Positions 30,757 to 42,899 of a stretch of DNA of 64,000 nt are shown piece by piece. Positions within the stretch are counted from its first letter, which is position 1; the number at the start of each line of letters is the position of its first letter. The DNA lies in contig JAPHQU010000001.1 in assembly GCA_026195275.1 (NCBI GenBank), positions 12,318 through 76,317 on the forward strand, written 5' to 3'. The stretch comes from Minisyncoccota bacterium. GTDB taxonomy: Bacteria; Patescibacteriota; Minisyncoccia; Phycocordibacterales; JABMNX01. Made by a program: the position numbers and the translations under genes. The notes below the pieces were generated by a model. That model saw nothing but the letters and a program-made list of their open reading frames with translations. It had not been told where the DNA came from and did not search any database.

Positions 30757-32442
30757 TTATACAAACAACCGCGCAATGCGAAGCTCCTCGTAGGTGTACT
30801 CCCCTTTAAGCGCGCGGTGGACTGGAGCGAGCTTGGTGTCCTTTGCTTTCTCAAAGGCCGCTTTTATCTTCTTGAGGTCTTTTGCCTTCGGTTTGAAGCG
30901 CGCAAGGTCGATGTCCGCACCGAGCTTCTGGAGTTTTTCAAGATGTGAGACGATCGTGCTGAGCGTCATGCCGCGCGCCTTTGCGATATCCTTAAGAGAG
31001 AGACCCTCTTCGATAAGTAGCCGCGTCTGTTCGTGCGTGGGGACCTTTTCTCGTACACCCTCCCGTTTCATGTCTGCATTCCGTGCGGCGTTCTTTAGGA
31101 TTTCCTTTTCATCTACCGTGCCGCCCATACGCTCAACAAACTCTTTGTGCATCTCTGCAACCTCACCTGCTGAAAAACGCGAGATGACCCGCTCCCATTT
31201 CGCTGACTCGCGGCGCAGGTGAGAATCATACTCAAGCACCTCACGGTTGACTTCAAGCGCCTGGTCATTCAGCCCGCGTAGAGTAAGCCCCTTAAGGGTA
31301 CGCAAACGTGAGAGTGCAACGTACCCTTGGCCGGATACGAAACATTTTGAAAGGTCAATCTCAGCAGCGTCCAGACTCATCCCCTGACTCTTATGAATCG
31401 TGATCGCCCAGGCAAGCCGAAGCGGAAGCTGAGTCACCTGCGCGACGGTCTTCTCCCCCTCTTCGACACGCCACTCAGCCGGGAGCACGGTGATCTCGTC
31501 TCCATAAAACGTACGCACGACTGGGAAGCCGTCTTCAAAACCGGTGATCACGCCGAGTGTACCGTTCACGTAGCCCGCCTCAAAGTTGTTCTTCACAAAC
31601 ATCACCACCGCATCTTCCTTGAGTGAGAGTGTCTCAGGTGCGAGAAGTCCCTTCTTGAGGGACGCGACAACACTCGCTTTGCCCTTTGATTCCATATCGT
31701 ACTCGCGCTCTTCACCCGGCAGTTTCTTGAGCTCAGCGGCATTGAGCGCATCCACGTCCAGGTTGTGGGTGTAGAGCCGTGTCGGCCGCACCTTACCTTC
31801 AGGCTCACCTTCCTCCCCCATACACCCCTCAAGAAGTGAACATGACTCGTTTGATACGTCACCACTCCGCATCTCGTTTAAGATATTCAAAAGCGCGTCG
31901 TCACTCTGTCTGAACTGCTCGTCGAGGTAGCACACACGAATGTCTGCCGCACCCCAAGCATCAGACGCGTATGCAAACTCGATCATCCGACTCCCGCGCA
32001 CCACTGGTGGCAACTGAAAGAAGTCTCCCGAGAGAACAAGCTGCATACCGCCAAACGGTTGATCGACTTGCTTCATTGCACGTGCCAGCCGATCAAGCGA
32101 GTCGAAGATCGCGGGTGTGAGCATCGACACCTCATCGATGATGAGCACCTTCGTCTTGTCATAACGCTTAAAGAGGTACTCCTTCTGCACGAGCGCGTCG
32201 ATGTCCATGTCGGAAAGGAAATCTTTGATGCCAATACCGGACCATGAATGAATGGTCACCCCACCAAAGTGCGTTGCGGCAATGCCTGTCGAGGCAGTGA
32301 GCCCGACTGCAACTCCGCGGTCTTTCAAAAAGGAGATGTACTCGCGGAGCACATGCGTCTTACCTGAGCCGGCCGGCCCAGTGAGGTAGGCATTGCGTCC
32401 CGCCTTCAAGATATCAAGTGCTTGCGCTTGCTTCATGAACAC
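30757..32442 (-). CDS. Pif1/RecD-family (SF1B) DNA helicase with C-terminal helix-turn-helix domain
   Basis: Walker A LTGPAGSGKTHVL. Walker B LIIDEVSM. QFRQ motif. TIHKSQGMSLD and VALSRL motifs typical of Pif1/RecD/TraA helicases. C-terminal LSLKDIAKARGMTLSTIVSHLEKL HTH. Confidence 0.8.
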   Translation of the reverse strand: MFMKQAQALDILKAGRNAYLTGPAGSGKTHVLREYISFLKDRGVAVGLTASTGIAATHFGGVTIHSWSGIGIKDFLSDMDIDALVQKEYLFKRYDKTKVLIIDEVSMLTPAIFDSLDRLARAMKQVDQPFGGMQLVLSGDFFQLPPVVRGSRMIEFAYASDAWGAADIRVCYLDEQFRQSDDALLNILNEMRSGDVSNESCSLLEGCMGEEGEPEGKVRPTRLYTHNLDVDALNAAELKKLPGEEREYDMESKGKASVVASLKKGLLAPETLSLKEDAVVMFVKNNFEAGYVNGTLGVITGFEDGFPVVRTFYGDEITVLPAEWRVEEGEKTVAQVTQLPLRLAWAITIHKSQGMSLDAAEIDLSKCFVSGQGYVALSRLRTLKGLTLRGLNDQALEVNREVLEYDSHLRRESAKWERVISRFSAGEVAEMHKEFVERMGGTVDEKEILKNAARNADMKREGVREKVPTHEQTRLLIEEGLSLKDIAKARGMTLSTIVSHLEKLQKLGADIDLARFKPKAKDLKKIKAAFEKAKDTKLAPVHRALKGEYTYEELRIARLFV

Positions 32443-32495: not shown

Positions 32496-32684
32496 TTACG
32501 AATTCACTGTCGTGCGTTTGCGGTATGCGTGCACCACTTTGCGCTGTTCCTCATTTGCTTCTCTTAACACCTGAGTAATGACCTTTTTCTTATCACCAGC
32601 AGATCTTGAGAAAAACTCTGAAAAATCGTTCTCTCTCGCCTCTGACTGTCCGAAGGAAGAGAAAAACCTAATGAATTTCGTCAT
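32496..32684 (-). CDS. Small hypothetical protein (62 aa) translationally coupled to the zeta-toxin-like gene
   Basis: ATGA start/stop overlap with the upstream gene, followed immediately by a terminator. MTKFIRFFSSFGQSEARENDFSEFFSRSAGDKKKVITQVLREANEEQRKVVHAYRKRTTVNS. Confidence 0.4.
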   Translation of the reverse strand: MTKFIRFFSSFGQSEARENDFSEFFSRSAGDKKKVITQVLREANEEQRKVVHAYRKRTTVNS

Positions 32685-33394
32685 ATAAGTAACGTGTTTA
32701 AATCATCTACAGAATACCTCCCATCAGCCAAACGGTCAATATCCGCTACAGACCCGTTCAGTTTAAGCTTCTCGGTACCTGTTTCGTAGTCCTTGATGAG
32801 CACATTAATCTTAATAGCATCTCCAAGCTTCCTTTTCACCGATTTTACATTTTCCCGAGAATCAAAGAACGCTCTCACAAACACGTCTTTGGATACGTGT
32901 CGCGCCTCCTCCAGTTCTCTCGCCTTAGTGAACTCCCATGCATGACGCGGATCTTGATATACAAACCACACCTCCACCCGGCGTCCTCTTTTTAATGAAC
33001 GCCTGATGTTATCCTCCACACCACCATACGCAAAGGTCCCGTCCATGATGCAGTTGATATCATTGCTCAGCGCATGATCATACAGAAAGTTGACACCTTT
33101 GTTTGCCGCTCTCTGAAATACGTGAGCGTTGTCTCCTGTATACCCGGGGCAAAATGCGCGTATTTCATCTGCGTCGATACGCACCGGGGCGTCCTTAATA
33201 AACCTCTTCATCAGCCCTTTTGACACTTCTGTCTTCCCTGCGCCAGGGGACCCGGCCATGAACAATGAAACTGGTTTACTCACAGAATGACACACTTCGG
33301 TCGGACAGAACCTCTCGATGAGTTCTTTCTTGTGGGTTTTGATATATTCAAGCGCTTCGTCTTCCAGCTTCTTCTCTTCTTCAGTCATGCTCAC
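32681..33394 (-). CDS. Zeta-toxin family P-loop kinase
   Basis: Walker A MAGSPGAGKTEV. RIDADEIRAFCPGY matches the zeta/PezT xIDxDxFR..HP phosphotransfer motif. Length 237 aa. Confidence 0.7.
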   Translation of the reverse strand: MSMTEEEKKLEDEALEYIKTHKKELIERFCPTEVCHSVSKPVSLFMAGSPGAGKTEVSKGLMKRFIKDAPVRIDADEIRAFCPGYTGDNAHVFQRAANKGVNFLYDHALSNDINCIMDGTFAYGGVEDNIRRSLKRGRRVEVWFVYQDPRHAWEFTKARELEEARHVSKDVFVRAFFDSRENVKSVKRKLGDAIKINVLIKDYETGTEKLKLNGSVADIDRLADGRYSVDDLNTLLI

Positions 33395-33654: not shown

Positions 33655-33689
33655 AAAATAAACGCCAGGCACGGCCTGGCGTTTATTTT
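33655..33689. terminator. Hairpin aaaataaacgccaggc-acgg-cctggcgtttatttt (typA terminator)
   Basis: Perfect inverted repeat with A/T flanks directly after the typA stop. The stem sequence is related to the hairpins at 30325 and 40782. Confidence 0.6.
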
Positions 33690-35478
33690 ACCCGCGTTTA
33701 CTGTGCTTTACGCGCTCGCCTTCCTTGAGGTACTTCTTGCGTAAGCGCACCGAGAGTGGCGTCACCTCGAGGTACTCGTCCTCGGTCATAATCTCAAGCC
33801 CGCTCTCGATCGAGAGCGCCTGGTGCGGGATGAGGGTGATCGCCTCTTCAGACCCGGACGCGCGAATGTTGGTGAGCTGCTTGCCCTTGGTTGGGTTGAC
33901 CACCATCTCGTCGCCCTTTGAAGTGTTCCCGATCACCATACCTTCATATACCTCCGTTGCGTGCCCGATGTAGAGTACGCCGCGCTCCTGCAAATTCCAG
34001 AGCGCGAAGGCAACCGCTTTGCCGGTGACCATTGAGGTCATCGAGCCGACGAAACGCTTCTTGATCTCACCGGCGTATGGCCGGAACCCGAGCACCTGCG
34101 AGCAGAGGATACCCTCGCCCTTGGTATCAATAGTGAACTGTCCGCGATAGCCAAGGAGCCCGCGTGTCGGTCCTTCGAAGATGAGACGCACCTGATTCTC
34201 GTGTGTGATCATGTTCTGCATCACGAACGCGCGGTTTGAGAGTCGCTCAATGACCGCCCCCTGAAACTCCTGCGGAATATCGATCGTGACCTCCTCGAAC
34301 GGCTCGTGCTTTACGCCGTCAATCTCACGAATGATTGCCTGCGGCTGTGAGACCATGACCTCGAATCCTTCGCGGCGCATATTCTCAAGCAAGATGGCAA
34401 TGTGCATCTCGCCGCGGCCGTATACATTGAAAATACTTCCCTCGGAGAAATCCACCTGGAGCCCCACGTTGATCTCGAGCTCTTTTTCCAGGCGTGCCTT
34501 GATCTCGCGGCTGGTGACCTGCTTGCCTTCGCGACCCACAAACGGCGATGAGTTCGGGAGGAACTGCAGCCCGATTGTCGGCTCATCAACCGCAATCATC
34601 GGGAGCGGCTCAGCACCTTCGCTATCAGTGAGGGTCTCGCCGATGTTAATATCCGCAAAACCAGCGATGAGCACAATATCCCCGGCAAGCGCTTCTTTCG
34701 ATTCAATCCGCTCAAGTCCTTTAAAAGTAGAGAGCTTGGTGACCTTTCCTTTGCGCGTGTTTCCCTTAGCGTCCTTTATGAAAAGCTGCGCACCGTCAGT
34801 GATCTTTCCTTCATAAATTCGCGCAACGGCAAGTCGGCCAGTGTAATCGTCGTACCCAAGGTTAAAGACCTGCGCGCGAAGCGCATCGCCTTCGTTGTAT
34901 GGTTTTGCCGCAGGGACCGTCTCAAGTATCGTATCGAGGACCGGCGCAAGGTCTTTAGCCTCGTCTTCCATCTTCCGCTTCGCGACGCCATCGCGCCCAA
35001 TGGCGTAGACCACCTCGAAGTCGCACTGCTCGTCGCTCGCCCCGAGCTCCATAAAGAGCTCAAGCACCTGCTCCTCGCAGTGCGCCGGGTCGGCTGCCGG
35101 TTTGTCGATCTTGTTGATGATCACAATCGGCTTGAGGCCAAGCTCAAGTGACTTCTTCAAGACAAAACGCGTCTGTGGCATCGGGCCTTCTTGTGCATCG
35201 ACCACCAAGAGCACCGAGTCGATCGAGCGCAAGACGCGCTCTACCTCCGAGCCAAAGTCGGCGTGTCCTGGCGTGTCGATGATGTTGATCTTCGTACCTT
35301 TGTACTCAACAGACGTGTTTTTGGCGTAAATGGTGATACCACGCTCCTGCTCGAGTGCGTTTGAGTCCATTGACGCACCCTCTTCTCGGGCACCGGTAAA
35401 TTCCATCAACCCGTCAGTAAGAGTTGTTTTCCCGTGGTCAACATGGGCAATTATGGCAATGTTTCGTATTTCGTTCAT
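33688..35478 (-). CDS. typA: Translational GTPase TypA/BipA
   Basis: MNEIRNIAIIAHVDHGKTTLTDGLM. G-domain motifs DTPGHADF and NKIDK. About 600 aa with the BipA C-terminal domain. Likely start at 35478. Confidence 0.9.
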   Translation of the reverse strand: MNEIRNIAIIAHVDHGKTTLTDGLMEFTGAREEGASMDSNALEQERGITIYAKNTSVEYKGTKINIIDTPGHADFGSEVERVLRSIDSVLLVVDAQEGPMPQTRFVLKKSLELGLKPIVIINKIDKPAADPAHCEEQVLELFMELGASDEQCDFEVVYAIGRDGVAKRKMEDEAKDLAPVLDTILETVPAAKPYNEGDALRAQVFNLGYDDYTGRLAVARIYEGKITDGAQLFIKDAKGNTRKGKVTKLSTFKGLERIESKEALAGDIVLIAGFADINIGETLTDSEGAEPLPMIAVDEPTIGLQFLPNSSPFVGREGKQVTSREIKARLEKELEINVGLQVDFSEGSIFNVYGRGEMHIAILLENMRREGFEVMVSQPQAIIREIDGVKHEPFEEVTIDIPQEFQGAVIERLSNRAFVMQNMITHENQVRLIFEGPTRGLLGYRGQFTIDTKGEGILCSQVLGFRPYAGEIKKRFVGSMTSMVTGKAVAFALWNLQERGVLYIGHATEVYEGMVIGNTSKGDEMVVNPTKGKQLTNIRASGSEEAITLIPHQALSIESGLEIMTEDEYLEVTPLSVRLRKKYLKEGERVKHSKRG

Positions 35479-35626
35479 TGTGTCTGTATTCAAAAAAAGA
35501 AGCCCGGCCATCCCGAGCAATGAGAAGATTATGCATTAAATTCAGCAGAAAAGCAATGTTCCCACCCGTAATTCTACTATATAAAACTCCCAAGTTTAGG
35601 ATAATAAATATTTCAGGTGTGCGACT

Positions 35627-37099
35627 CTACTCTGCTCTTCCTTGAGTGATGTTGAGTGCTGGTCTATACAAGAATGGGATCCAAAATGTAGGTGTATCTT
35701 TATTTCCTCTTTTCTCAAAAAAACCCACGTTTGTTAGTTTTATTGCAATCTTTTCTGTTTCATCATCATCTACGCTCCATATCTTCTTTAAAGTAGCTAG
35801 GGTATGCTCCGCTTTCTCGCCTTCAAGTTTTTCTATGTAAGGTTTTGATTTTGGAAATTCAGCATATAGAGTCTGATGAAGTCTGGTTCGAGAGACTTGA
35901 GGCAATGCTTCTTTCACTGAAGTCCTACTAAATAATGGTTCTTTATCCTCACTAGCTTGCCCCATTTCGAAACTCCTTGTTTCTTCCTCTCTGATTTGAT
36001 TAAGCAACTGAATAAGCTCCCTGGGGGCTACAGTATCTGTCCCATCGGTGCATCTCGTTACCATCCACTTGAAAGTTTCAGGTTTTTTGGGTCCCAGGTC
36101 CACTTGTTTGGGGAAGATTCTATAAAATAACTCTTGTTGCTTTGTATAATCAGACAATACATCATTTGGATTAACCCCAAAATATTCACTAATCTGAGGA
36201 TTGATGAGTATTCGACGCATTATCAAATTCAATAACTTTGCTTCACTCCAGTCAATGGTCACGTGTCGTGTAATATGGCTTGCTTCTCTGAAGCCTTGTT
36301 CAGTAATCCTTTTCCATATATCGGTGCGAAGAAAGATTTTAAGTTTTATGCTTTCTGCACTGAGTAAACTTAGGTAACAATGAAACAATGCTCGAAGCGC
36401 ATTTTCTTCAAGATTATGGTTCTCCTTAAACGCGACATCTAATCTGTCAATTGCAATCCAGACTATAAGATTTTCCATCCTTAATGCCTGATTGGCGTAA
36501 GTGATGAGTTGGTCGATAGATATATTAACCTTTGAATCGTCCGTAGGATCACCTTCAAGAGATGCTTTGCCAACACATGAGACCATTCCCGTATTAGGGT
36601 CAAATGTTAACATTCCTTCTAGCGATTGAAGTTTTCGTTTATTGATAAAGTCTAGAATTCTCGAAATCAAAGTCTTCTTATCTTGCTCTAAAAAGCCGGC
36701 CCTCCTCAACACTGCTGTAAGTTCATTCGCAGGGTTATTCTTAACTTTTGCTTCTTGTAAGAAAAGACCAACCAAAGAAACGAAGTAAAGTTTCCAGAGT
36801 GACTGGAAATCTACCTCACTTGTAGGTGGTTTTATCTCAATATTTTGAAATGCCGTGTCTCCTCGTGGATTTTCAGCGGATATAATAGAGGCCTCTTCTA
36901 TCTTGTCGTTCTTTTCAAGCAACAGAGTGTAAAGAGCGCTCTTTCCTGAACCTTTATGGCCGTAGACAATATCAATCTCTCCTGCAATAACTCGATTCCA
37001 CTGATCTGTTTCCACAAAATATTTTGAGAGGTCGCTGCTCTCGCTTTCGGCTACCCCTTCACCAAATCTTAATGACTTAACTAGTTCGCTTCTTTCCAT
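35627..37099 (-). CDS. P-loop NTPase of unknown function, encoded directly downstream of the R-M pair
   Basis: Walker A IVYGHKGSGKSALYTLL. Candidate Walker B LIVWIAIDRLD. 490 aa, no TM, no nuclease motif recognised. AT-rich codon usage like the neighbouring R-M genes. Confidence 0.6.
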   Translation of the reverse strand: MERSELVKSLRFGEGVAESESSDLSKYFVETDQWNRVIAGEIDIVYGHKGSGKSALYTLLLEKNDKIEEASIISAENPRGDTAFQNIEIKPPTSEVDFQSLWKLYFVSLVGLFLQEAKVKNNPANELTAVLRRAGFLEQDKKTLISRILDFINKRKLQSLEGMLTFDPNTGMVSCVGKASLEGDPTDDSKVNISIDQLITYANQALRMENLIVWIAIDRLDVAFKENHNLEENALRALFHCYLSLLSAESIKLKIFLRTDIWKRITEQGFREASHITRHVTIDWSEAKLLNLIMRRILINPQISEYFGVNPNDVLSDYTKQQELFYRIFPKQVDLGPKKPETFKWMVTRCTDGTDTVAPRELIQLLNQIREEETRSFEMGQASEDKEPLFSRTSVKEALPQVSRTRLHQTLYAEFPKSKPYIEKLEGEKAEHTLATLKKIWSVDDDETEKIAIKLTNVGFFEKRGNKDTPTFWIPFLYRPALNITQGRAE

Positions 37100-37256
37100 T
37101 TCTACATAATATACTTAATTTCATGGATTAACCACCTGTATTATTGGTATCCTTTCTAGAAAATCTGTAGTTTTATTACCTCTTAAATCCCCTTCTTCAT
37201 GTTTCTCTGGATCTGTTCCACCCCACACTCCCAAAATACATAAACCTTCCAGTCGG

Positions 37257-38576
37257 CTATGCTTCGTACTCGTCGACATACTTGATGAGGTTCTTCCCTA
37301 TCTTGGCGATAATACCCGTCACCAAAGCATTACCGATGAAGAATGCTCGTGTGTTGTCAGACACAGGGCCATTCACTCCCTCTGCGGTGTGATTATCTGG
37401 GAACATGCTCAGCCGCTCTAACTCGACCGGAGTGAGCCTCCTCATCTTCCCACTTTGAGGAGATTGTACCACATGCTTGAAACGTGAAGGTCCACTACCG
37501 CCCTCGCCCGTAACAACTGTCCGAGACGGTTTGTCCAATGAGTCGGGAAATGACATGCCACCTTCCGAGAAAACATACGATTCACCGGTGTGTTTATTAA
37601 CACGCTCTATCTTCTTTGCGCCTTTCTGCTTCTTCCATTTCTTTATGACCTCTTTGTCGTCTATGAAATATTCCTCACCAACCTCCTTGTCGGCAAGCAG
37701 CACATCCCCAAGAACCACGGTCGTCTTTGCTGGTTTGGGTGTGACCTTTGCAGTATATACATCACCGTTTATCATCACACCCGCATTATGAAAAGGTGAC
37801 ACCTTCAAACCGCGCCCAAAATGATCTGATATCTGTTTCTCGTCTTCGTGTAGGAGTATCTCGTTGAGCTCATGTTCTTGAACACGCTTGATTGGGAATG
37901 CTTTACCAAAGACGCCCTCATGCAACCACCTAAGATGCCCCTTTGAACGCATTTGTTTTGCTATACCACTATTGTTCTTGTAGGCAAGGATGAATATCCT
38001 TCTTCGGCGCTGCGGGAAACCATGGTCAGCCGCATTGATAACACGCCACTCAACGTCATACCCAAGAGTCTCAAGGGAGCGAAGCATAACAGCAAAGTCG
38101 CGACCCCGCTGTGTCCCCGGTGACTTCAGCAAACGGTCGACATTCTCGAGGAGTAGTATCTTTGGGGCTTTGCGACCGCGCTTCTCCTGTAACTGCTGCA
38201 CAAGCGACACAATCGACCACCACAAGACCCCTTTCTTCCCAATAATGCCGGCCGACTGTCGAAGTGGCTTTGCTACAGAATAGTCTTGGCATGGGAAACC
38301 ACCAACAAGAATGTCGTGATCAGGAACCGAATCTATATGATACTTCACAACCTCTTCGATGTTGGTGTTGGTATGCAAAAGGTTCTCCACGCCCCAATTC
38401 TTTGAATACACATCATGAGCGTGCTGTTGTTTCTTGCCGGGCTCCCACTGATTGAACCAAACTGTCTCAAAGCGATTCCGTGACGCCTTCTCAAAGCCGA
38501 CACGAAATCCACCAACTCCCGCAAAGAGTTCTGCCACGCGCAATTTATTGTCGGACATTCCAGGCTTTTTCTTCAT
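37257..38576 (-). CDS. DNA (cytosine-5)-methyltransferase
   Basis: Motif I ELFAGVGGFRVGF (FxGxGG). Motif IV GGFPCQDYS (PCQ). Motif VI ENV (LLENVDRLL). C-terminal GNAL (motif X). Confidence 0.9.
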   Translation of the reverse strand: MKKKPGMSDNKLRVAELFAGVGGFRVGFEKASRNRFETVWFNQWEPGKKQQHAHDVYSKNWGVENLLHTNTNIEEVVKYHIDSVPDHDILVGGFPCQDYSVAKPLRQSAGIIGKKGVLWWSIVSLVQQLQEKRGRKAPKILLLENVDRLLKSPGTQRGRDFAVMLRSLETLGYDVEWRVINAADHGFPQRRRRIFILAYKNNSGIAKQMRSKGHLRWLHEGVFGKAFPIKRVQEHELNEILLHEDEKQISDHFGRGLKVSPFHNAGVMINGDVYTAKVTPKPAKTTVVLGDVLLADKEVGEEYFIDDKEVIKKWKKQKGAKKIERVNKHTGESYVFSEGGMSFPDSLDKPSRTVVTGEGGSGPSRFKHVVQSPQSGKMRRLTPVELERLSMFPDNHTAEGVNGPVSDNTRAFFIGNALVTGIIAKIGKNLIKYVDEYEA

Positions 38577-38606
38577 GCCCCTATTCTACCAAGCAGAGAA
38601 AAAAGA

Positions 38607-40133
38607 TCAATCTTGATCTTTGTCGTTTTCTATTGCATGCTGAATATATTTGGCATTGAGCCAGAATCCTTGTTTTGTAAAGGTTTTCCAGCCAGTGAGC
38701 TGGTCAGGGACCGGTAGCTCATTTGTTATACCCCTGTTTGTGGTGTGAGGGCGCACGTGCGCTACACCATTGAAGGTGCTACCTGGAAAATGATTATATA
38801 TTCTCCCGTCGGCTTTTTGGGGGACTTTCTTTATTATTTTCCCTTCATTCAGCAACTCAATAGTCTTCTCCCAAGTCTCCCGCGCCTTACCCATGTCTTC
38901 CGCAGGGAAATTCCAGAACATTGTCTTTTGCAAGATAATCTCATCAGATTCTTCTTGTTTCTGGAAAACAACAAAGAGGAACTTTTTCTCTTCAAGTTGT
39001 GCATGAAAATCACTCATTTGCTCTGCTTCTTCGTCATACCACACTTGTGTAACGAGGTCTTTGAAATTAAATGCCGGGAAAGAAACAGACTCTTTTAGGG
39101 AGCCGTCCGGTTCTAGCGCCAACACCTTCAGCGTCACATCTGCTTTCTCAAGCTCCTCTACCTTGTTTGACCCTGTGCCCGTAAGGATATGGTTAGCTAT
39201 GAGTCGTTTGTAATTCTTTGGTTTCACTTTTGGCTTCCATTTAAGCATCTTGAGAATCTCGGTATCAGTCTTTCCGATGAATTTCCTAAATCTATCTTCG
39301 ACAACCTGGTCGATAGTTTTCGTCTTTGGTGCTCCTTTATATATAGAAACCTCGTCTGGAGAGACCCCGAGCAGCTTCGTCTGTATAAGATAATTCAGGT
39401 ACGCCTGCTTCAAAGAAAACGCGCGTGGCTTTGCTGGAATGCGCGATTTTGGCTGGTCGCGAACCACACGGCTGTGCGCCGCTTTTGTACACGCACCAAG
39501 ATAGAATGTATCGCCTTCAGATAGCTCGTGCGCCTTACCGTCCCGAATCTTGTCGACAATGCACTCCCAGTCCTTCTTGATTTGCACAACATCCTCTTGA
39601 GAAAGCCCTTCGAGTAGATCGAGAAAATGTACGAACTTGAATTTATAATCCAAAAGACTTGCTTCTTTCAGCCAAAGATAAAAGATGAGCAGGAGGAAGC
39701 GGTTCTTCTTGAGAAAAGAGCTGGTCTCCCACTTTTCGCTAATCACTGTGTCGTAATTAATCATAGAGAAGACGAGACGCTCCTTCGAAACAAACCGCTT
39801 CTTGTTGTGCTTCTTTAGCGGGGTTGCTTTAAGCTCAACATTTGCAACTTTGAAGTCCGCCTCCGCTCTACCATTATTCTCTAGGTCAAACACATATTGC
39901 TCAACAAGGTCACCAAAAAAACCCTTTCGGCGGGTTCCGTATTTCCCGAGCTGTTTCTCAATATCATCTGCTTCCTCTTTCGACACAATATCTCGAAGAG
40001 TCTTCCCTAGGACTGCTTCTGCTGCTGTTATGACATCTTCTGCTGTCTGATACTGTGTGTCTTGCATACTTAGATTTATACACCAATCATAGGACACTCG
40101 TCCAACCACCTCTTGAGACGATGACGTGGTCAA
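38607..40133 (-). CDS. Sau3AI/MutH-family type II restriction endonuclease (predicted GATC-type)
   Basis: 508 aa, size like R.Sau3AI. N-terminal MutH-like catalytic motif GRAEADFKVANVELKATP (D...E-x-K), which parallels the MutH D70...E77-L-K79 block and resembles the MutH/Sau3AI PDFxxLGVELKTIP block as recalled from memory. Adjacent and co-oriented with an m5C MTase, as in the Sau3AI system. The start may be the internal Met at 40067. Confidence 0.6.
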   Translation of the reverse strand: MTTSSSQEVVGRVSYDWCINLSMQDTQYQTAEDVITAAEAVLGKTLRDIVSKEEADDIEKQLGKYGTRRKGFFGDLVEQYVFDLENNGRAEADFKVANVELKATPLKKHNKKRFVSKERLVFSMINYDTVISEKWETSSFLKKNRFLLLIFYLWLKEASLLDYKFKFVHFLDLLEGLSQEDVVQIKKDWECIVDKIRDGKAHELSEGDTFYLGACTKAAHSRVVRDQPKSRIPAKPRAFSLKQAYLNYLIQTKLLGVSPDEVSIYKGAPKTKTIDQVVEDRFRKFIGKTDTEILKMLKWKPKVKPKNYKRLIANHILTGTGSNKVEELEKADVTLKVLALEPDGSLKESVSFPAFNFKDLVTQVWYDEEAEQMSDFHAQLEEKKFLFVVFQKQEESDEIILQKTMFWNFPAEDMGKARETWEKTIELLNEGKIIKKVPQKADGRIYNHFPGSTFNGVAHVRPHTTNRGITNELPVPDQLTGWKTFTKQGFWLNAKYIQHAIENDKDQD

Positions 40134-40731
40134 TAAGGTCTATGCCAAGCAGCTTACTCGCGTGCTGAAGTTGTTTTGTAATCTCAACATCCTCATGCGA
40201 ACACTCACTGTCCCCCGACGGGTGGTTGTGAGCGACAATAATTGAGGCGGCTGAGTGACGGAGGGCGGGTTCAAAGACCTCGCGCGGGTGAACTAGGCTG
40301 GCGTCAAGTGTCCCGATTGAGATGATTTCACGTGCAATGAGCGCGCCGCGTGAGTTGCAATAGAACGCCACAAAATGCTCTTTACGAGAGTTGCGAAAGT
40401 CTGCGCAGAGCTCAAAGACCTTTTCGGGAGTCATAACAACTTCATCTTTGGCCGCATGCTGCCTGCGACCATACTCAAGAGCAGCGAGCACTTGTCCTGC
40501 TTTGACCATACCAAGACCTTTGATTGAAGTGAGGTCTTTAATAGTGAGACTCTCAAGACCAACTTCCTCCACCTTATTCACAATCTTCTTTGCAAGCTGC
40601 ACAACATTTGTGCCTTGCGTGCCCGAACCAAGCACAATAGCGAGCAGTTCGTGATTGGTTAATTTACCAACCCCATAGCGTGCAAGCTTCTCACGTGGTC
40701 GCGCGTACTTGGGCGCATCTTTCATCTTCAT
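40087..40731 (-). CDS. radC: RadC-like JAB/MPN domain protein
   Basis: N-terminal HhH region (GVGKLTNHELLAIVLGSG). C-terminal JAMM motif HNHPSGDSECSHEDVEITKQL. Confidence 0.85.
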   Translation of the reverse strand: MKMKDAPKYARPREKLARYGVGKLTNHELLAIVLGSGTQGTNVVQLAKKIVNKVEEVGLESLTIKDLTSIKGLGMVKAGQVLAALEYGRRQHAAKDEVVMTPEKVFELCADFRNSRKEHFVAFYCNSRGALIAREIISIGTLDASLVHPREVFEPALRHSAASIIVAHNHPSGDSECSHEDVEITKQLQHASKLLGIDLIDHVIVSRGGWTSVL

Positions 40732-40781
40732 ACTCTAAATAATATCAGATAACCTGCTAAAACATTGTCACCTATTGGGAA

Positions 40782-40815
40782 AAATAAACGCCACACACGT
40801 GTGAGGCGTTTATTT
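40782..40815. terminator. Hairpin aaataaacgcc-acacacgtgtgag-gcgtttattt
   Basis: Inverted repeat with A/T flanks downstream of radC. The stem is related to the 33655 hairpin. Confidence 0.5.
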
Positions 40816-40848
40816 TGCCTGCCTGTCGGCAAACTGAGATGAAATCGG

Positions 40849-41091
40849 TTAGTTTCCCTGTATCAGAGCAAGTTTCTTGGTGCGCGTCAGCTTCTTGATC
40901 TCCGCTTCGCGCTTGAGCGCGGACGATCTGTCGGCGCACTCTTCGGTGTAGACAATGCTCCCTGCTCCTTTTGCGCGCGTGTAGTTGGAACCGGTGCCGT
41001 CCTTGTGTTGCGCGAGCCTGCGCTTGAGGTCAGTGGTAATGCCGGTATAGAGCGTGCTGTCGTTACATTCAAGAATATAGAGGAAATACAT
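40849..41091 (-). CDS. GIY-YIG nuclease-domain protein (YhbQ-like, 80 aa)
   Basis: MYFLYILECNDSTLYTGITTDLKRRLAQH has the GIY...YIG and R, E core. Confidence 0.75.
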   Translation of the reverse strand: MYFLYILECNDSTLYTGITTDLKRRLAQHKDGTGSNYTRAKGAGSIVYTEECADRSSALKREAEIKKLTRTKKLALIQGN

Positions 41092-41298: not shown

Positions 41299-42192
41299 TT
41301 ATTCTCCCTTAGTGTCTTTTGTTTTATCCTCGTCTTTCTTTTGTTCAGCCGCTTCTTTCTTTGCTTCGCCAAGGCTGCGTAGACTTTTTATGGTGTCCTC
41401 ACACGGAGCAATAGATGTAATCATACTAACTCCCGGTAACGAGTCCCCTGAGCTTCTCCGATTCGGTATGTAAGCAGTGATTACACCTGCTATTTTTGGT
41501 CTATTTGAGTTAGCATCTATATAAAAAACTGGTCCACCACTAACACCATTAATCGCGACACCATCTATTAGGTAGTCCCCTGAAATATGGCAACTAATAA
41601 ACCCGTGAAAGAAACATAATTGACCACTCATTAACCCAGGGTAACCACACCAGGCAACATCAACACCAGGCACAAGATAGCTACCTGAAGGTATTAATTC
41701 AATTTGAGTTTTTGGAAGGTTAAATTTTTTCGGCTTCACAAAAAGCATAACGGCTAGATCTTTTTTGGGATAAGTAAATACCGCTCGATCTTTTTCTTTA
41801 AGTAAAATTTCTTCTCCAGTAGCCTCATGTACAACCTTTATGGGTTCGCCCCATTCATGGACCCCGTCAACAACGTGATAGGCTGTAGCAATTGCACATA
41901 AATTATCATTGGTGCCAAAATTTCCTATATGGAATCCGGTGCCGTGGCCCCTTGGAGTATTCAATTTAACTACTCTATCATTTACTAGTCTCAAAGCTCC
42001 TTGCCATGTCAAAGCAATTTTTTTAGGTATTTGTGGCTGTAAAGGTTTCCTAACTGCTTTTTTAGTTGTTTTCTTTACGGTCTTCTTAGCAGTTGTCTTT
42101 CTTTTTGTTGTTCTTCTCTTTGCTGGTGCCTTCTTTGCTGCTTTTTTAGTTGTTTTCTTTTGTGCTTTTGCCATGATTTCATTATATCGCAA
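41299..42192 (-). CDS. Trypsin-like serine protease with histone-H1-like Lys/Thr-rich N-terminal tail
   Basis: N-terminal about 55 aa are AKAQKKTTKKAAKKAPAKRRTTKRKTTAKKTVKKTTKKAVRK. Protease domain with His (ATAYHVVDG) and Ser (GVSGGPVF, GDSGGP-like) motifs. Confidence 0.7.
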   Translation of the reverse strand: MRYNEIMAKAQKKTTKKAAKKAPAKRRTTKRKTTAKKTVKKTTKKAVRKPLQPQIPKKIALTWQGALRLVNDRVVKLNTPRGHGTGFHIGNFGTNDNLCAIATAYHVVDGVHEWGEPIKVVHEATGEEILLKEKDRAVFTYPKKDLAVMLFVKPKKFNLPKTQIELIPSGSYLVPGVDVAWCGYPGLMSGQLCFFHGFISCHISGDYLIDGVAINGVSGGPVFYIDANSNRPKIAGVITAYIPNRRSSGDSLPGVSMITSIAPCEDTIKSLRSLGEAKKEAAEQKKDEDKTKDTKGE

Positions 42193-42325: not shown

Positions 42326-42376
42326 TATAAGTGAGCGAGTGAGCGTCATAAACAAGTGAATATTTCCCGCTCAAAG

Positions 42377-42447
42377 CTGCCGGACTTGGACTCGAACCAA
42401 GATTAACTGGACCAGAACCAGTCGTCCTACCATTAGACGATCCGGCA
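42377..42447 (-). tRNA. tRNA-Gln (anticodon CTG)
   Basis: Minus-strand TGCCGGA-TC-GTCT-AATGGTA-GGAC-G-ACTGG-TTCTGGT-CCAGT-TAAT-CTTGG-TTCGAGT-CCAAG-TCCGGCA-G. All stems pair and U1-A72 is present as in bacterial tRNA-Gln. CCA not encoded. Confidence 0.75.
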
Positions 42448-42623: not shown

Positions 42624-42899
42624 CTAGCTACGCTCCTTCTTGAAACAGTCGAGGCACTTGAGGTTGCCGGTGTCACGTGGCTGGAATGGAAGCTCGGTGA
42701 TCGCTCCTCCGCAGCCGGCGCATTTCCAGTCGCCCTTGTGCATGGTGCGCTCGGCACGAGGTGTGTCATTTCCACCATTTCCACCAGCTCCTTTGGCGAA
42801 GCATGACTTGCATTTCAAACCTGCGGTGTTCCGCGGCTCGAATGGAAGCTCGGTGATCGCTCCTCCACATCCACTACATGTCCAATTTCCTTGATGCAT
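42624..42899 (-). CDS. Small protein with two tandem CxxC...CxxC zinc-ribbon repeats
   Basis: MHQGNWTCSGCGGAITELPFEPRNTAGLKCKSCF / MHKGDWKCAGCGGAITELPFQPRDTGNLKCLDCF is an internal duplication of about 40 aa, each copy with four Cys. Chosen over the overlapping plus-strand ORF 42640-42894 because of the repeat and Cys conservation. Confidence 0.5.
   Translation of the reverse strand: MHQGNWTCSGCGGAITELPFEPRNTAGLKCKSCFAKGAGGNGGNDTPRAERTMHKGDWKCAGCGGAITELPFQPRDTGNLKCLDCFKKERS

What the first reader, a model, noticed from the sequence alone, without database searches (positions are those of the whole stretch)
35627..41091. Sau3AI/MutH-like endonuclease plus m5C methyltransferase followed by an uncharacterised P-loop NTPase, flanked by RadC and GIY-YIG genes: candidate three-gene defence module in an AT-rich islet
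Three co-oriented genes. (i) A 508 aa protein whose N-terminus carries a MutH/Sau3AI-type D...ELK catalytic block (GRAEADFKVANVELKATP). (ii) A canonical m5C MTase (FxGxGG, PCQ, ENV motifs). (iii) 157 nt downstream, a 490 aa soluble P-loop NTPase (GHKGSGKSALY; IVWIAIDRLD) with no recognisable effector domain. The known Sau3AI-type systems are two-gene, so a tightly linked third NTPase gene is not explained by the textbook R-M model. It could be a novel accessory component (abortive-infection ATPase, KAP-like sensor, or an anti-restriction-resistant backup). The block looks more AT-rich than the flanking typA/pyrG regions and sits beside a RadC JAB protein and a GIY-YIG mini-nuclease, both common passengers of mobile or defence islands.
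Basis: partly seen in the sequence, partly recalled or inferred. Interest (0 to 1): 0.72.

Follow-up and report, generated by a model that had tools for sequence, protein, structure and literature searches.

The report
Ordinary restriction system plus unrelated ATPase
The three genes are real, but they are a standard two-gene Sau3AI-type restriction-modification system with a separately acquired, stand-alone ATPase of unknown function next to it, not a new three-gene defence system.

Summary
All three genes exist on the minus strand of a Candidatus Pacebacteria (CPR) contig. Two are a textbook pair: a Sau3AI-family endonuclease (NCBIfam equivalog 454 bits; full-length match to Sau3AI PDB 4PXG) and an m5C methyltransferase. 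The third belongs to a curated but uncharacterised family, the 'P-loop ATPase, Sll1717 family' (210 bits, cut-off 75). It has an Orc1/Cdc6-like AAA+ fold with a winged helix and no effector domain.

No Sau3AI or m5C gene lies within 10 kb of the ATPase in 83 homolog loci from many phyla. No ATPase lies near 80 metagenomic loci (±6 kb) or 4 further looked-up contexts (±7 kb) of REase relatives. The ATPase has no conserved neighbour at all. Only the ATPase is AT-rich (GC 0.39 against 0.49; MTase 0.49). The family averages 10 GC points below its flanks in 65 genomes, so it is a serially transferred solitary gene.

The gene that does recur next to the R-M pair in CPR genomes is RadC, directly upstream (31 of 58 loci). 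RadC's 3' flank holds other defence genes elsewhere, which suggests a radC-anchored defence slot.

The ATPase is a remote relative of DS-41, a validated single-gene anti-phage ATPase, so an independent defence role is plausible but unproven. Interest is low.

The parts
38607..40067 (-). Sau3AI-family type II restriction endonuclease, 486 aa. The ORF is extendable to a TTG at 40133 (508 aa), which is probably not the real start.
   Evidence: NCBIfam NF040973 'restrict_Sau3AI' equivalog: 453.9 bits against a cut-off of 300. Pfam MutH: 88.7 bits. PADLOC REase_II: 295 bits. phmmer against Sau3AI PDB 4PXG: E 2.8e-63 over residues 43-480, and against the C-domain entries 2REU/7XM0: E ~1e-23. The D...E-L-K residues are invariant in 21 homologs. 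NCBI annotates 486 aa.
37257..38576 (-). Cognate C5-cytosine DNA methyltransferase, 439 aa, 30 nt downstream of the REase
   Evidence: Pfam PF00145: 193 bits. TIGR00675 dcm: 214 bits. PADLOC MTase_II PDLC03329: 506 bits. An MTase sits immediately downstream of REase relatives in 52 of 57 loci with room. GC 0.489, the same as the genome.
37100..37256 (-). 157-nt spacer between the MTase and the ATPase
   Evidence: No terminator-like hairpin and no promoter match above chance in this spacer. Co-transcription can be neither shown nor excluded.
35627..37099 (-). Stand-alone Sll1717-family P-loop (AAA+, Orc1/Cdc6-like) ATPase with a C-terminal winged helix, 490 aa. Independently acquired.
35502..35518 (-). 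Terminator-like GC hairpin plus T-run, lying after the ATPase and before the probable typA start
   Evidence: GCTCGGGATGGCCGGGC followed by TTCTTTTTTT. It lies between the ATPase stop (35627) and the MNEIRN... start of TypA (about 35478).
40087..40731 (-). Canonical RadC (HhH N-domain + JAB domain), 214 aa. It is the conserved gene directly upstream of the R-M pair and the likely anchor of the variable slot.
   Evidence: NCBIfam PRK00024 equivalog: 211 bits against a cut-off of 180. Pfam RadC + UPF0758_N. The HNHPSGDSECSHED JAMM motif is present in the translation. RadC is directly upstream of REase relatives in 31 of 58 loci with room, always on the same strand. RadC also occurs without the R-M pair.
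40849..41091 (-). Small stand-alone GIY-YIG protein, 80 aa. A bystander.
   Evidence: Pfam GIY-YIG: 70 bits. A 46%-identical copy lies near typA in the syntenic relative L084/L092.
33688..35520 (-). TypA/BipA GTPase, a housekeeping gene that forms the downstream boundary
   Evidence: Translation. It is 74% identical to TypA in relative L084/L085. GC 0.555.
30757..32442 (-). PIF1-type helicase with C-terminal HTH_40. In some CPR lineages its ortholog is the next conserved gene after RadC.
   Evidence: Pfam PIF1: 128 bits; HTH_40: 77 bits. It is 46-48% identical over its full length to the gene that follows RadC in L172-L174. L136 has the order RadC-R-M-PIF1.

Best explanation
The locus holds two unrelated units that sit side by side in a variable, defence-gene-collecting slot downstream of the chromosomal radC gene of a Candidatus Pacebacteria (CPR) bacterium.

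Unit 1 is an ordinary two-gene Type II restriction-modification system of the Sau3AI family.
- The MTase methylates cytosine C5 in the recognition site. By family, that site is presumably GATC.
- The two-domain MutH-like endonuclease cuts unmethylated incoming DNA.
- The pair has host-like composition. It has diverged from its closest syntenic relative about as much as the housekeeping TypA, so it is an old resident. The arrangement RadC -> R -> M recurs widely in Patescibacteria.

Unit 2 is a solitary gene of the Sll1717 P-loop ATPase family.
- It has an Orc1/Cdc6-like AAA+ core, a helical lid and a C-terminal winged helix. It has no nuclease, protease or other effector domain.
- It was acquired separately by horizontal transfer and does not need the R-M genes.

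Inferred, not shown: the ATPase acts on its own as an ATP-dependent, oligomerising nucleic-acid- or protein-sensing switch in genetic conflict (phage or mobile-element defence). This would resemble its remote relative DS-41, a single ~500-aa AAA+ protein that protects E. coli from phages. I give that functional sub-claim about 0.4. I give the structural claim (two independent units, not a three-gene system) about 0.85.
For: R-M identity:
- REase: Sau3AI equivalog HMM 454 bits against a cut-off of 300. MTase: PF00145, TIGR00675 and PADLOC MTase_II.
- The REase matches Sau3AI 4PXG over nearly its full length (residues 43-480), E 2.8e-63.

Independence of the ATPase:
1. 83 loci carrying ATPase homologs (45-53% identity) have no Sau3AI-like or m5C MTase gene within 10 kb by tblastn. 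The hosts include Paenibacillus, Acidobacteriota, Actinomycetota, Alphaproteobacteria, Saccharibacteria and Saganbacteria.
2. The largest cluster of its neighbours spans 4 of 79 loci. No Pfam or PADLOC family occurs in more than 2 of its 143 nearest neighbours, and most of those neighbours are housekeeping genes. Individual contexts show single-gene insertions between sigma-70 and a cupin gene, and between chorismate synthase and def, plus one copy in an integrase-bearing element.
3. 80 metagenomic loci of REase relatives contain no ATPase. 52 of 57 have the MTase directly downstream. In four looked-up contexts the gene after the MTase is Endonuc_Holl, Vsr, Vsr or DNA_alkylation.
4. Composition: ATPase GC 0.393 (z -3.2), MTase 0.489, RadC 0.506. 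The family averages 0.10 below flank GC in 65 genomes; 55 of 65 are lower by more than 0.05.
5. The syntenic relative L084/L085 has RadC-R-M and, 5.4 kb further on, TypA. Identities to the window are 73, 70, 78 and 74%. Different genes occupy the place where the window has the ATPase.

Slot model:
- RadC is directly upstream of the REase in 31 of 58 loci, always co-oriented.
- Where it is not adjacent, an SF1 helicase, NOV_C, AIPR, an OLD-family nuclease or HATPase genes sit in between.
- RadC without Sau3AI is followed by PIF1 after a short spacer (L172-L174) or by a Type I R-M plus AbiEii (L175).
- L136 is a filled site, RadC-R-M-PIF1.

Nature of the ATPase:
- NF047389: 210 bits against a cut-off of 75.
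- DS41_1 HMM: E 2e-12 but only 46.8 bits. PADLOC PDC-M28C: 70 bits.
- DS-41 is a validated single-gene system (PMC13092281).
Against: - Adjacency and co-orientation in this genome are real. No terminator-like site separates the MTase from the ATPase, so co-transcription and a lineage-specific functional interplay cannot be excluded.
- A defence role for the ATPase is not demonstrated. Most of its neighbours elsewhere are housekeeping genes. It is absent from phage records and nearly absent from plasmids. It is unusually well conserved for a defence gene: mean column identity 55% across phyla.
- Its similarity to DS-41 is remote: hhalign probability 17%, and BLASTP finds motifs only.
- The RadC..PIF1 frame holds only for some lineages. 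PIF1 was not found downstream in 34 other REase loci.
- The tblastn screens could miss very divergent MTases.
Confidence: 0.85

Rival explanations
1. R, M and the NTPase form one three-gene defence system, and the ATPase acts as an accessory sensor, abortive-infection backup or regulator of the Sau3AI-type R-M.
For: The genes are co-oriented and adjacent, with a 157-nt gap and no predicted terminator between the MTase and the ATPase. A terminator-like hairpin appears only after the ATPase.
Against: There is no co-occurrence in either direction: 0 of 83 ATPase loci, and 0 of 80 plus 0 of 4 REase loci. Base composition is discordant, 0.393 against 0.489. The closest syntenic relative has the R-M pair without the ATPase. 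The ATPase occurs as a single inserted gene between housekeeping genes elsewhere.
Confidence: 0.05
2. The functional unit is RadC-R-M. The RadC JAB-domain protein is a working partner of the Sau3AI-type system, for example a nucleic-acid-processing or regulatory component, and is co-transcribed with it.
For: RadC lies directly upstream of the REase in 31 of 58 loci, always on the same strand, with gaps of about 0-40 nt or overlaps. The same order is seen in 4 of 4 annotated contexts with differing outer flanks. [quoted passage not shown]
Against: This RadC is the canonical full-length HhH+JAB housekeeping type (equivalog HMM). Equally similar RadC genes occur without Sau3AI, followed by PIF1 or by a Type I R-M. 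Other defence genes can sit between RadC and the REase. REase relatives below 50% identity mostly lack RadC: 1 of 12 have it. Sau3AI itself works as a two-gene system (established knowledge).
Confidence: 0.12
3. The ATPase has no defence role. It is a selfish or regulatory DNA-binding AAA+ protein that merely landed here, for example a remnant of a mobile-element maintenance or targeting ATPase (TnsC/MuB/IstB-like), or a chromosome-associated switch.
Against: No transposase, integrase or partner gene is conserved next to it. Its distribution is sporadic across phyla and its GC is consistently 10 points below the host's, which is typical of accessory conflict genes. It has remote but significant HMM similarity to a validated single-gene anti-phage protein (DS41_1, E 2e-12) and to a PADLOC candidate. 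Occasional neighbours are Mrr, Type III R-M, PemK or a Schlafen-like helicase.
Confidence: 0.35

Closest known systems
Sau3AI restriction-modification system (Staphylococcus aureus; R.Sau3AI PDB 4PXG/2REU, with its m5C MTase)
   Same: Two-gene R + m5C-M organisation. The REase has the N-terminal MutH-like catalytic domain with D...ELK plus the C-terminal allosteric MutH-like domain. It scores above the equivalog HMM cut-off and aligns over nearly its full length with 4PXG.
   Different: The host is a CPR bacterium. The pair is embedded directly downstream of radC. No Vsr gene is present, although 13 CPR relatives have one. Specificity (GATC) and the methylated base are assumed from family membership and were not tested.
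NCBIfam NF047389 'P-loop ATPase, Sll1717 family'
   Same: The window ATPase scores 210.5 bits against a cut-off of 75, covering model positions 1-423 of 454. It has the same ~490-510 aa stand-alone architecture as 730 clusters found at E<=1e-30.
   Different: Nothing distinguishes it from other family members except the CPR host and the R-M neighbour. I found no literature describing any function for the family.
DS-41 ('AAA2', WP_033812887.1), a single-gene anti-phage AAA+ protein validated in the DefensePredictor study (PMC13092281)
   Same: A single ~500-aa P-loop protein with no effector domain. The N-terminal motif, Walker A, Walker B and a 'PRELI' motif are collinear between the two. The DS41_1 HMM gives E 2e-12.
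   Different: The score is only 46.8 bits against a cut-off of 370. hhalign probability is 17%, and BLASTP finds only short motifs. It is a remote relative, not a member, and no activity data exist for the Sll1717 family.
Orc1/Cdc6 initiators and archaeal 'ATPase_2' proteins (SSO1545 2FNA, PAB2304 2QEN); more broadly STAND/BrxC/RdrA-type defence ATPases
   Different: Sequence matches to the Pfam models fall below their cut-offs (PF24389: 15.9 bits against 27). It has a family-specific N-terminal motif and a low-confidence insert at residues 157-190. It has no sensor repeats, no effector domain and no partner genes.
Core-gene-anchored defence hotspots, such as hotspots between conserved genes in Pseudomonas or enterobacteria and in P2/P4 prophages
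   Same: A conserved anchor gene (radC, and in some lineages PIF1 on the other side) borders a slot whose content varies between relatives and is dominated by defence genes.
   Different: It is seen here in Patescibacteria. The inserted genes are always co-oriented with radC and often abut it. No integrase or repeat boundary was detected. The survey is small and was not done as a formal pan-genome analysis.

Membership tests
Sau3AI-family type II restriction endonuclease (NF040973) | Whole-protein score above the curated equivalog cut-off | tested here: met
   453.9 bits against a cut-off of 300, covering model positions 2-474 of 475.
Sau3AI-family type II restriction endonuclease (NF040973) | N-terminal MutH-like catalytic domain with D...E-x-K, plus a second C-terminal MutH-like allosteric domain | tested here: met
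   Pfam MutH matches residues 82-188 of the 508-aa ORF. D71, E78 and K80 (486-aa numbering) are invariant in 21 homologs. The C-terminal half matches the Sau3AI C-domain entries 2REU/7XM0 at E ~1e-23, and the full length matches 4PXG at E 2.8e-63.
Sau3AI-family type II restriction endonuclease (NF040973) | Adjacent cognate m5C methyltransferase | tested here: met
   The MTase lies 30 nt downstream. The same arrangement occurs in 52 of 57 relatives with room.
Sau3AI-family type II restriction endonuclease (NF040973) | Cleavage at GATC, blocked by C5 methylation of the cytosine | not testable with these tools
   Requires enzyme assays or methylome data.
C5-cytosine DNA methyltransferase (PF00145 / TIGR00675) | HMM above cut-off, and motifs I (FxGxGG), IV (PCQ) and VI (ENV) | tested here: met
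   PF00145: 193 bits (cut-off 22). TIGR00675: 214 bits (cut-off 100.65). FAGVGGF, GFPCQDYS and LLLENV are present in the translation.
P-loop ATPase, Sll1717 family (NF047389) | Whole-protein score above the curated cut-off, with intact Walker A and Walker B | tested here: met
   210.5 bits against a cut-off of 75. G47-x-K49-G50-x-G52-K53-S54 and D218-R219-L220-D221 are invariant in 25 family members, including the window protein.
DS-41 anti-phage protein (NF053860 DS41_1_antiphage) | Whole-protein score above the equivalog cut-off (370 bits) | tested here: not met
   46.8 bits, E 2e-12. hhalign probability 17%. BLASTP finds motif-only matches.
DS-41 anti-phage protein (NF053860 DS41_1_antiphage) | Protects against phage as a single gene | not testable with these tools
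   DS-41 was validated in E. coli (PMC13092281). No data exist for the Sll1717 family.
PADLOC candidate system PDC-M28 (component C) | Full-length match to component C, with the other components of the multi-gene candidate encoded nearby | tested here: not met
   The match is partial: 70 bits, residues 195-301 against profile positions 154-259 of 480. None of the seven neighbouring proteins scanned hits any PDC-M28 model.
   0 of 83 ATPase loci have a Sau3AI or m5C gene within 10 kb. 0 of 80 REase loci and 0 of 4 annotated contexts have the ATPase.
   GC is 0.393 for the ATPase, 0.489 for the MTase and 0.446 for the REase.
Orc1/Cdc6 - archaeal ATPase_2 - STAND AAA+ ATPases | AAA+ core, lid and winged-helix fold | tested here: met
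Orc1/Cdc6 - archaeal ATPase_2 - STAND AAA+ ATPases | Sequence-level membership of a Pfam family (PF24389, PF01637) | tested here: not met
   PF24389: 15.9 bits against a cut-off of 27. PF01637 does not match the window protein.
Canonical RadC (PRK00024 / TIGR00608) | HhH-type N-domain plus a JAB domain with the HxH...S..D metal motif, and an HMM score above cut-off | tested here: met
   211 bits against a cut-off of 180. Pfam UPF0758_N + RadC. HNHPSGDSECSHED is present in the translation.

The most novel reading that the evidence does not exclude
The Sll1717-family ATPases are a widespread, so far unrecognised, effector-less single-gene immune or conflict system. They would be a distant sister of the validated DS-41. 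They spread as solitary AT-rich genes across bacterial phyla, and here one has been captured in a radC-anchored defence slot of a CPR bacterium. The family comprises 730 clusters at 50% identity and has relatives in at least 314 species representatives. If this is right, an Orc1/Cdc6-like AAA+ core plus a winged helix is sufficient for defence.
Probability: 0.3. Interest if true: 0.55.

Novelty: new member of a known kind. Interest (0 to 1): 0.22.

Why it matters
As posed, the finding does not stand. There is no new three-gene R-M architecture here, so this is a routine annotation: a Sau3AI-family R-M pair plus a member of an existing NCBIfam family.

Two by-products have modest value.
1. The Sll1717 ATPase family behaves like a serially transferred accessory gene. 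It is solitary, sits about 10 GC points below every host, is sporadic across phyla, and is remotely related to a validated single-gene anti-phage ATPase. That makes it a reasonable candidate for experimental defence screening.
2. In Patescibacteria, which have tiny genomes and an episymbiotic lifestyle, the 3' flank of radC appears to be a recurrent, co-oriented landing site for defence genes, most often this Sau3AI-type R-M. This could help in mapping defence content in CPR genomes.

Tried and rejected
- Literature searches for 'Sll1717' and 'PDC-M28' returned nothing. 'RadC + Sau3AI' returned only irrelevant papers.
- The PDB sequence search with the ATPase profile found only generic P-loop hits at E>0.01.
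- The AFDB50 fold library was unavailable.
- I looked for insertion scars around the ATPase. Only short direct or inverted repeats at chance level were found.
- The promoter scan was not above the shuffled expectation, 7 against 9.2. It therefore gives no evidence for or against a separate promoter in the 157-nt spacer.
- I looked for effector fusions in longer family members. Their extensions are miscellaneous (Methyltransf_11, IF2_N, HEAT repeats, a tandem duplicate), so they give no functional hint.
- I looked for the family in phages (none) and on plasmids (6 distant hits at <=26% identity).
- I considered that RadC..PIF1 might frame a universal slot. This was rejected as a general rule because PIF1 was not found downstream in 34 other REase loci.
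- I considered DS-41 membership. This was rejected on score.

Full report
**What is in the sequence**

All genes in the finding lie on the minus strand. In transcription order they are:

| Gene | Coordinates | Size |
|---|---|---|
| Small GIY-YIG protein | 40849-41091 | 80 aa |
| RadC | 40087-40731 | 214 aa |
| MutH/Sau3AI-like ORF | 38607-40133 | 508 aa as an ORF |
| m5C methyltransferase | 37257-38576 | 439 aa |
| Spacer | 37100-37256 | 157 nt |
| P-loop ATPase | 35627-37099 | 490 aa |
| TypA | 33688-35520 | — |

- The ATPase is 100% identical to a hypothetical protein of a Candidatus Pacebacteria MAG on a 144-kb contig, so the window comes from a CPR/Patescibacteria genome.
- One correction concerns the REase start. 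NCBI annotates it as 486 aa, and all close homologs are 460-490 aa. The start is therefore most likely the ATG at 40067, 19 nt after the RadC stop, and not the TTG at 40133 that overlaps RadC.

**Identity of the three proteins**

- **REase.** It passes the curated Sau3AI equivalog model (NF040973, 453.9 bits against a cut-off of 300) and has a Pfam MutH domain and a PADLOC REase_II match. It aligns over nearly its full length with Sau3AI itself (PDB 4PXG, E 2.8e-63), including the C-terminal allosteric domain (2REU/7XM0). The D...ELK residues are invariant among 21 homologs.
- **MTase.** It is a standard C5 methyltransferase: PF00145 193 bits, TIGR00675 214 bits, PADLOC MTase_II 506 bits.
- **ATPase.** It is not an orphan. 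It belongs to NCBIfam NF047389, 'P-loop ATPase, Sll1717 family' (210.5 bits against a cut-off of 75). It has weak matches to the anti-phage model DS41_1 (46.8 bits against a cut-off of 370) and to PADLOC candidate PDC-M28C (70 bits, partial).

**Is the ATPase a third component of the R-M system?**

I tested linkage in both directions.

*Starting from the ATPase.*
- The protein database holds more than 2,500 homologs. The best 120 are all full-length, at 45-53% identity, and come from unrelated phyla.
- A scan of one genome per species found relatives in 314 species, and I fetched 80 loci with up to 10 kb on each side.
- tblastn with the window's REase, MTase, RadC, GIY-YIG, zeta toxin and PIF1 found no Sau3AI-like gene and no m5C MTase gene in any of the 83 loci.
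- Clustering the four ORFs on each side across 79 loci gave no neighbour family present in more than 4 loci.
- No Pfam or PADLOC family occurred in more than 2 of the 143 nearest substantial neighbours. Most of those neighbours are housekeeping genes such as RNR, SHMT, gyrase and chorismate synthase. A few are integrases, transposases, Mrr or Type III R-M genes.
- Annotated contexts show the gene inserted on its own between sigma-70 and a cupin gene, between chorismate synthase and def, and inside an integrase-bearing element.

*Starting from the REase.*
- Its close relatives (57-70% identity) are almost all Patescibacteria.
- In four annotated contexts the gene after the MTase is a Holliday-junction resolvase, Vsr, Vsr, or a DNA-alkylation repair gene on the other strand. 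It is never this ATPase.
- In 80 metagenomic loci, none contains the ATPase, while 52 of the 57 with room have the MTase directly downstream.

*Composition.*
- Against 50 window ORFs (mean GC 0.497, sd 0.032), the ATPase is a strong outlier (0.393, GC3 0.347, z -3.2).
- The MTase (0.489) and RadC (0.506) are typical of the genome, and the REase is mildly low (0.446). The 'AT-rich islet' is therefore one gene, not the block.
- This is a property of the family. In 65 host genomes the ATPase gene averages 0.10 below its flanks; 55 of 65 are lower by more than 0.05, and only one is higher.

*Closest syntenic relative.* L084/L085 has RadC, R, M and TypA at 73, 70, 78 and 74% identity to the window. 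A different 5.4 kb of genes lies between M and TypA, and there is no ATPase.

The only residual support is local. The genes are adjacent and co-oriented, no terminator-like site lies in the 157-nt spacer, and one appears after the ATPase at 35518-35502. Co-transcription in this one genome therefore remains possible.

**What is actually conserved: RadC**

- The gene that recurs with this R-M pair is RadC, directly upstream. This holds in 4 of 4 annotated contexts and in 31 of 58 metagenomic loci with room upstream. It is always on the same strand, with gaps of about 0-40 nt.
- By REase identity, RadC is adjacent in 22 of 32 loci at 55% or more, and in 1 of 12 loci below 50%.
- This RadC is the canonical HhH+JAB protein (equivalog PRK00024, 211 bits against a cut-off of 180) and has an intact JAMM motif.

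I then asked whether RadC is a partner of the R-M pair or an anchor for it.
- Where RadC is not adjacent, co-oriented defence-type genes sit between it and the REase. These are an SF1 helicase, NOV_C, AIPR, an OLD-family nuclease and an HATPase.
- RadC homologs of similar identity (about 60-63%) occur without Sau3AI. In three contexts RadC is followed, after a short variable spacer, by a PIF1+HTH_40 helicase. In a fourth it directly abuts a Type I R-M followed by AbiEii.
- The window has the orthologous PIF1+HTH_40 gene (46-48% identity) further downstream on the same strand.
- One locus, L136, reads RadC-R-M-PIF1. It is a filled site matching the empty site in L174.
- Other recurrent neighbours of the R-M pair are Vsr (13 loci), HTH_3, Fic/RhuM, AIPR, GmrSD and PemK.

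The simplest reading is that radC is a chromosomal anchor whose 3' flank collects defence genes, and that the Sau3AI-type pair is the most frequent occupant. The RadC..PIF1 frame is restricted to some lineages, since PIF1 was absent downstream in 34 other loci. A functional RadC-R-M coupling is not excluded, and I keep it as a low-probability rival. The papers I could search describe RadC as a probable nucleic-acid-processing JAB domain that is sometimes fused to anti-restriction ArdC. None of them reports this linkage.

**What the ATPase probably does**

- An exhaustive profile search found 730 clusters at 50% identity with E<=1e-30, and 3,523 with E<=1e-3, among 1.84 billion representatives. 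Nearly all are stand-alone proteins of 490-510 aa.
- The few longer members carry unrelated extensions, so there is no recurrent effector fusion.
- The family is absent from phage records, and on plasmids there are only six distant relatives.
- It is unusually well conserved: 75 invariant columns among 25 sequences from different phyla, spread from an N-terminal motif through Walker A and B to the winged helix.
- DS-41 is the source of NCBIfam's DS41_1 model. It is a single 502-aa protein ('AAA2', WP_033812887.1) that the DefensePredictor study validated as protecting E. coli against several BASEL phages (PMC13092281). A direct comparison shows collinear motifs but only remote similarity. It is a relative, not a family member.

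I therefore infer, at about 0.4, that the Sll1717 family acts as a self-contained ATP-driven switch in genetic conflict. The supporting observations are its solitary and sporadic distribution, its consistently foreign composition, and its fold kinship with BrxC, Avs and RdrA. The main rival is a non-defence DNA-binding or selfish ATPase, at about 0.35.

**Verdict**

The interpretation as a three-gene system is not. The locus is a known kind of R-M system next to an independently acquired member of a known but uncharacterised ATPase family, and both sit in what looks like a radC-anchored defence slot of a CPR genome. Novelty: new member of a known kind. Interest: low.

Noticed in passing
window 40087-40731 with 38607-40067; loci L084-L091, L092-L171, L172-L175: In Patescibacteria, canonical RadC lies directly upstream of, and co-oriented with, the Sau3AI-type R-M pair (31 of 58 loci). 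In other genomes, Type I R-M, AIPR, OLD-family, SF1-helicase or NOV_C genes occupy the same position after RadC. This suggests that the radC 3' flank is a defence-gene hotspot. I found no report of it in the searchable literature.
   Followed up: partly
L136:3303-7026 compared with L174:5001-7559: A natural pair of filled and empty sites. L136 reads RadC-REase-MTase-PIF1, and L174 reads RadC-(70-aa ORF)-PIF1.
   Followed up: partly
window 40067-40133: The 508-aa REase ORF starts at a TTG that overlaps RadC by 47 nt. NCBI's annotation and all homologs support the ATG at 40067 (486 aa), which leaves a 19-nt gap after RadC.
   Followed up: yes
window 41299-42192 (-) and tRNA-Gln 42376-42447 (-): A second strongly AT-rich gene (GC 0.395, GC3 0.286, z -3.2) encodes a trypsin-like protease with a lysine-rich, histone-H1-like N-terminal tail and a weak PADLOC LmuA-like match (E 7e-9). 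It sits immediately downstream of tRNA-Gln(CTG), so it may be another recent insertion at a tRNA.
   Followed up: no
window 42624-42899 (-): A 91-aa ORF made of two tandem copies of a CxxC...ELPFxPR...CxxC zinc-ribbon-like module. It was not identified further.
   Followed up: no
window 32496-33394 (-): A zeta-toxin family kinase (237 aa; Pfam Zeta_toxin E 2.6e-38) is followed by a 62-aa ORF that overlaps its stop by 4 nt. This may be a toxin-antitoxin pair with an unusual gene order. It lies between TypA and the PIF1 helicase.
   Followed up: no
L004-L083 (65 loci with at least 5 kb of flank): Sll1717-family ATPase genes average 10 GC points below their flanking DNA, in hosts whose GC ranges from 33% to 74%. 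Only 1 of 65 is above its flank. This consistent signature of foreign origin comes with about 50% protein identity across phyla.
   Followed up: partly
L078:9350-16255 (Candidatus Saccharibacteria UBA5150): In another CPR genome the ATPase is packed between an HhH-GPD glycosylase and a MazG-like pyrophosphohydrolase. A GIY-YIG + Schlafen-group-3 helicase follows, and a PemK toxin lies a little further on. This context is partly defence-like and contains no R-M genes.
   Followed up: partly
window 37257-38576 and downstream: The window's m5C MTase has no Vsr very-short-patch repair gene next to it, whereas 13 CPR relatives of this R-M pair carry Vsr, usually directly after the MTase.
   Followed up: no
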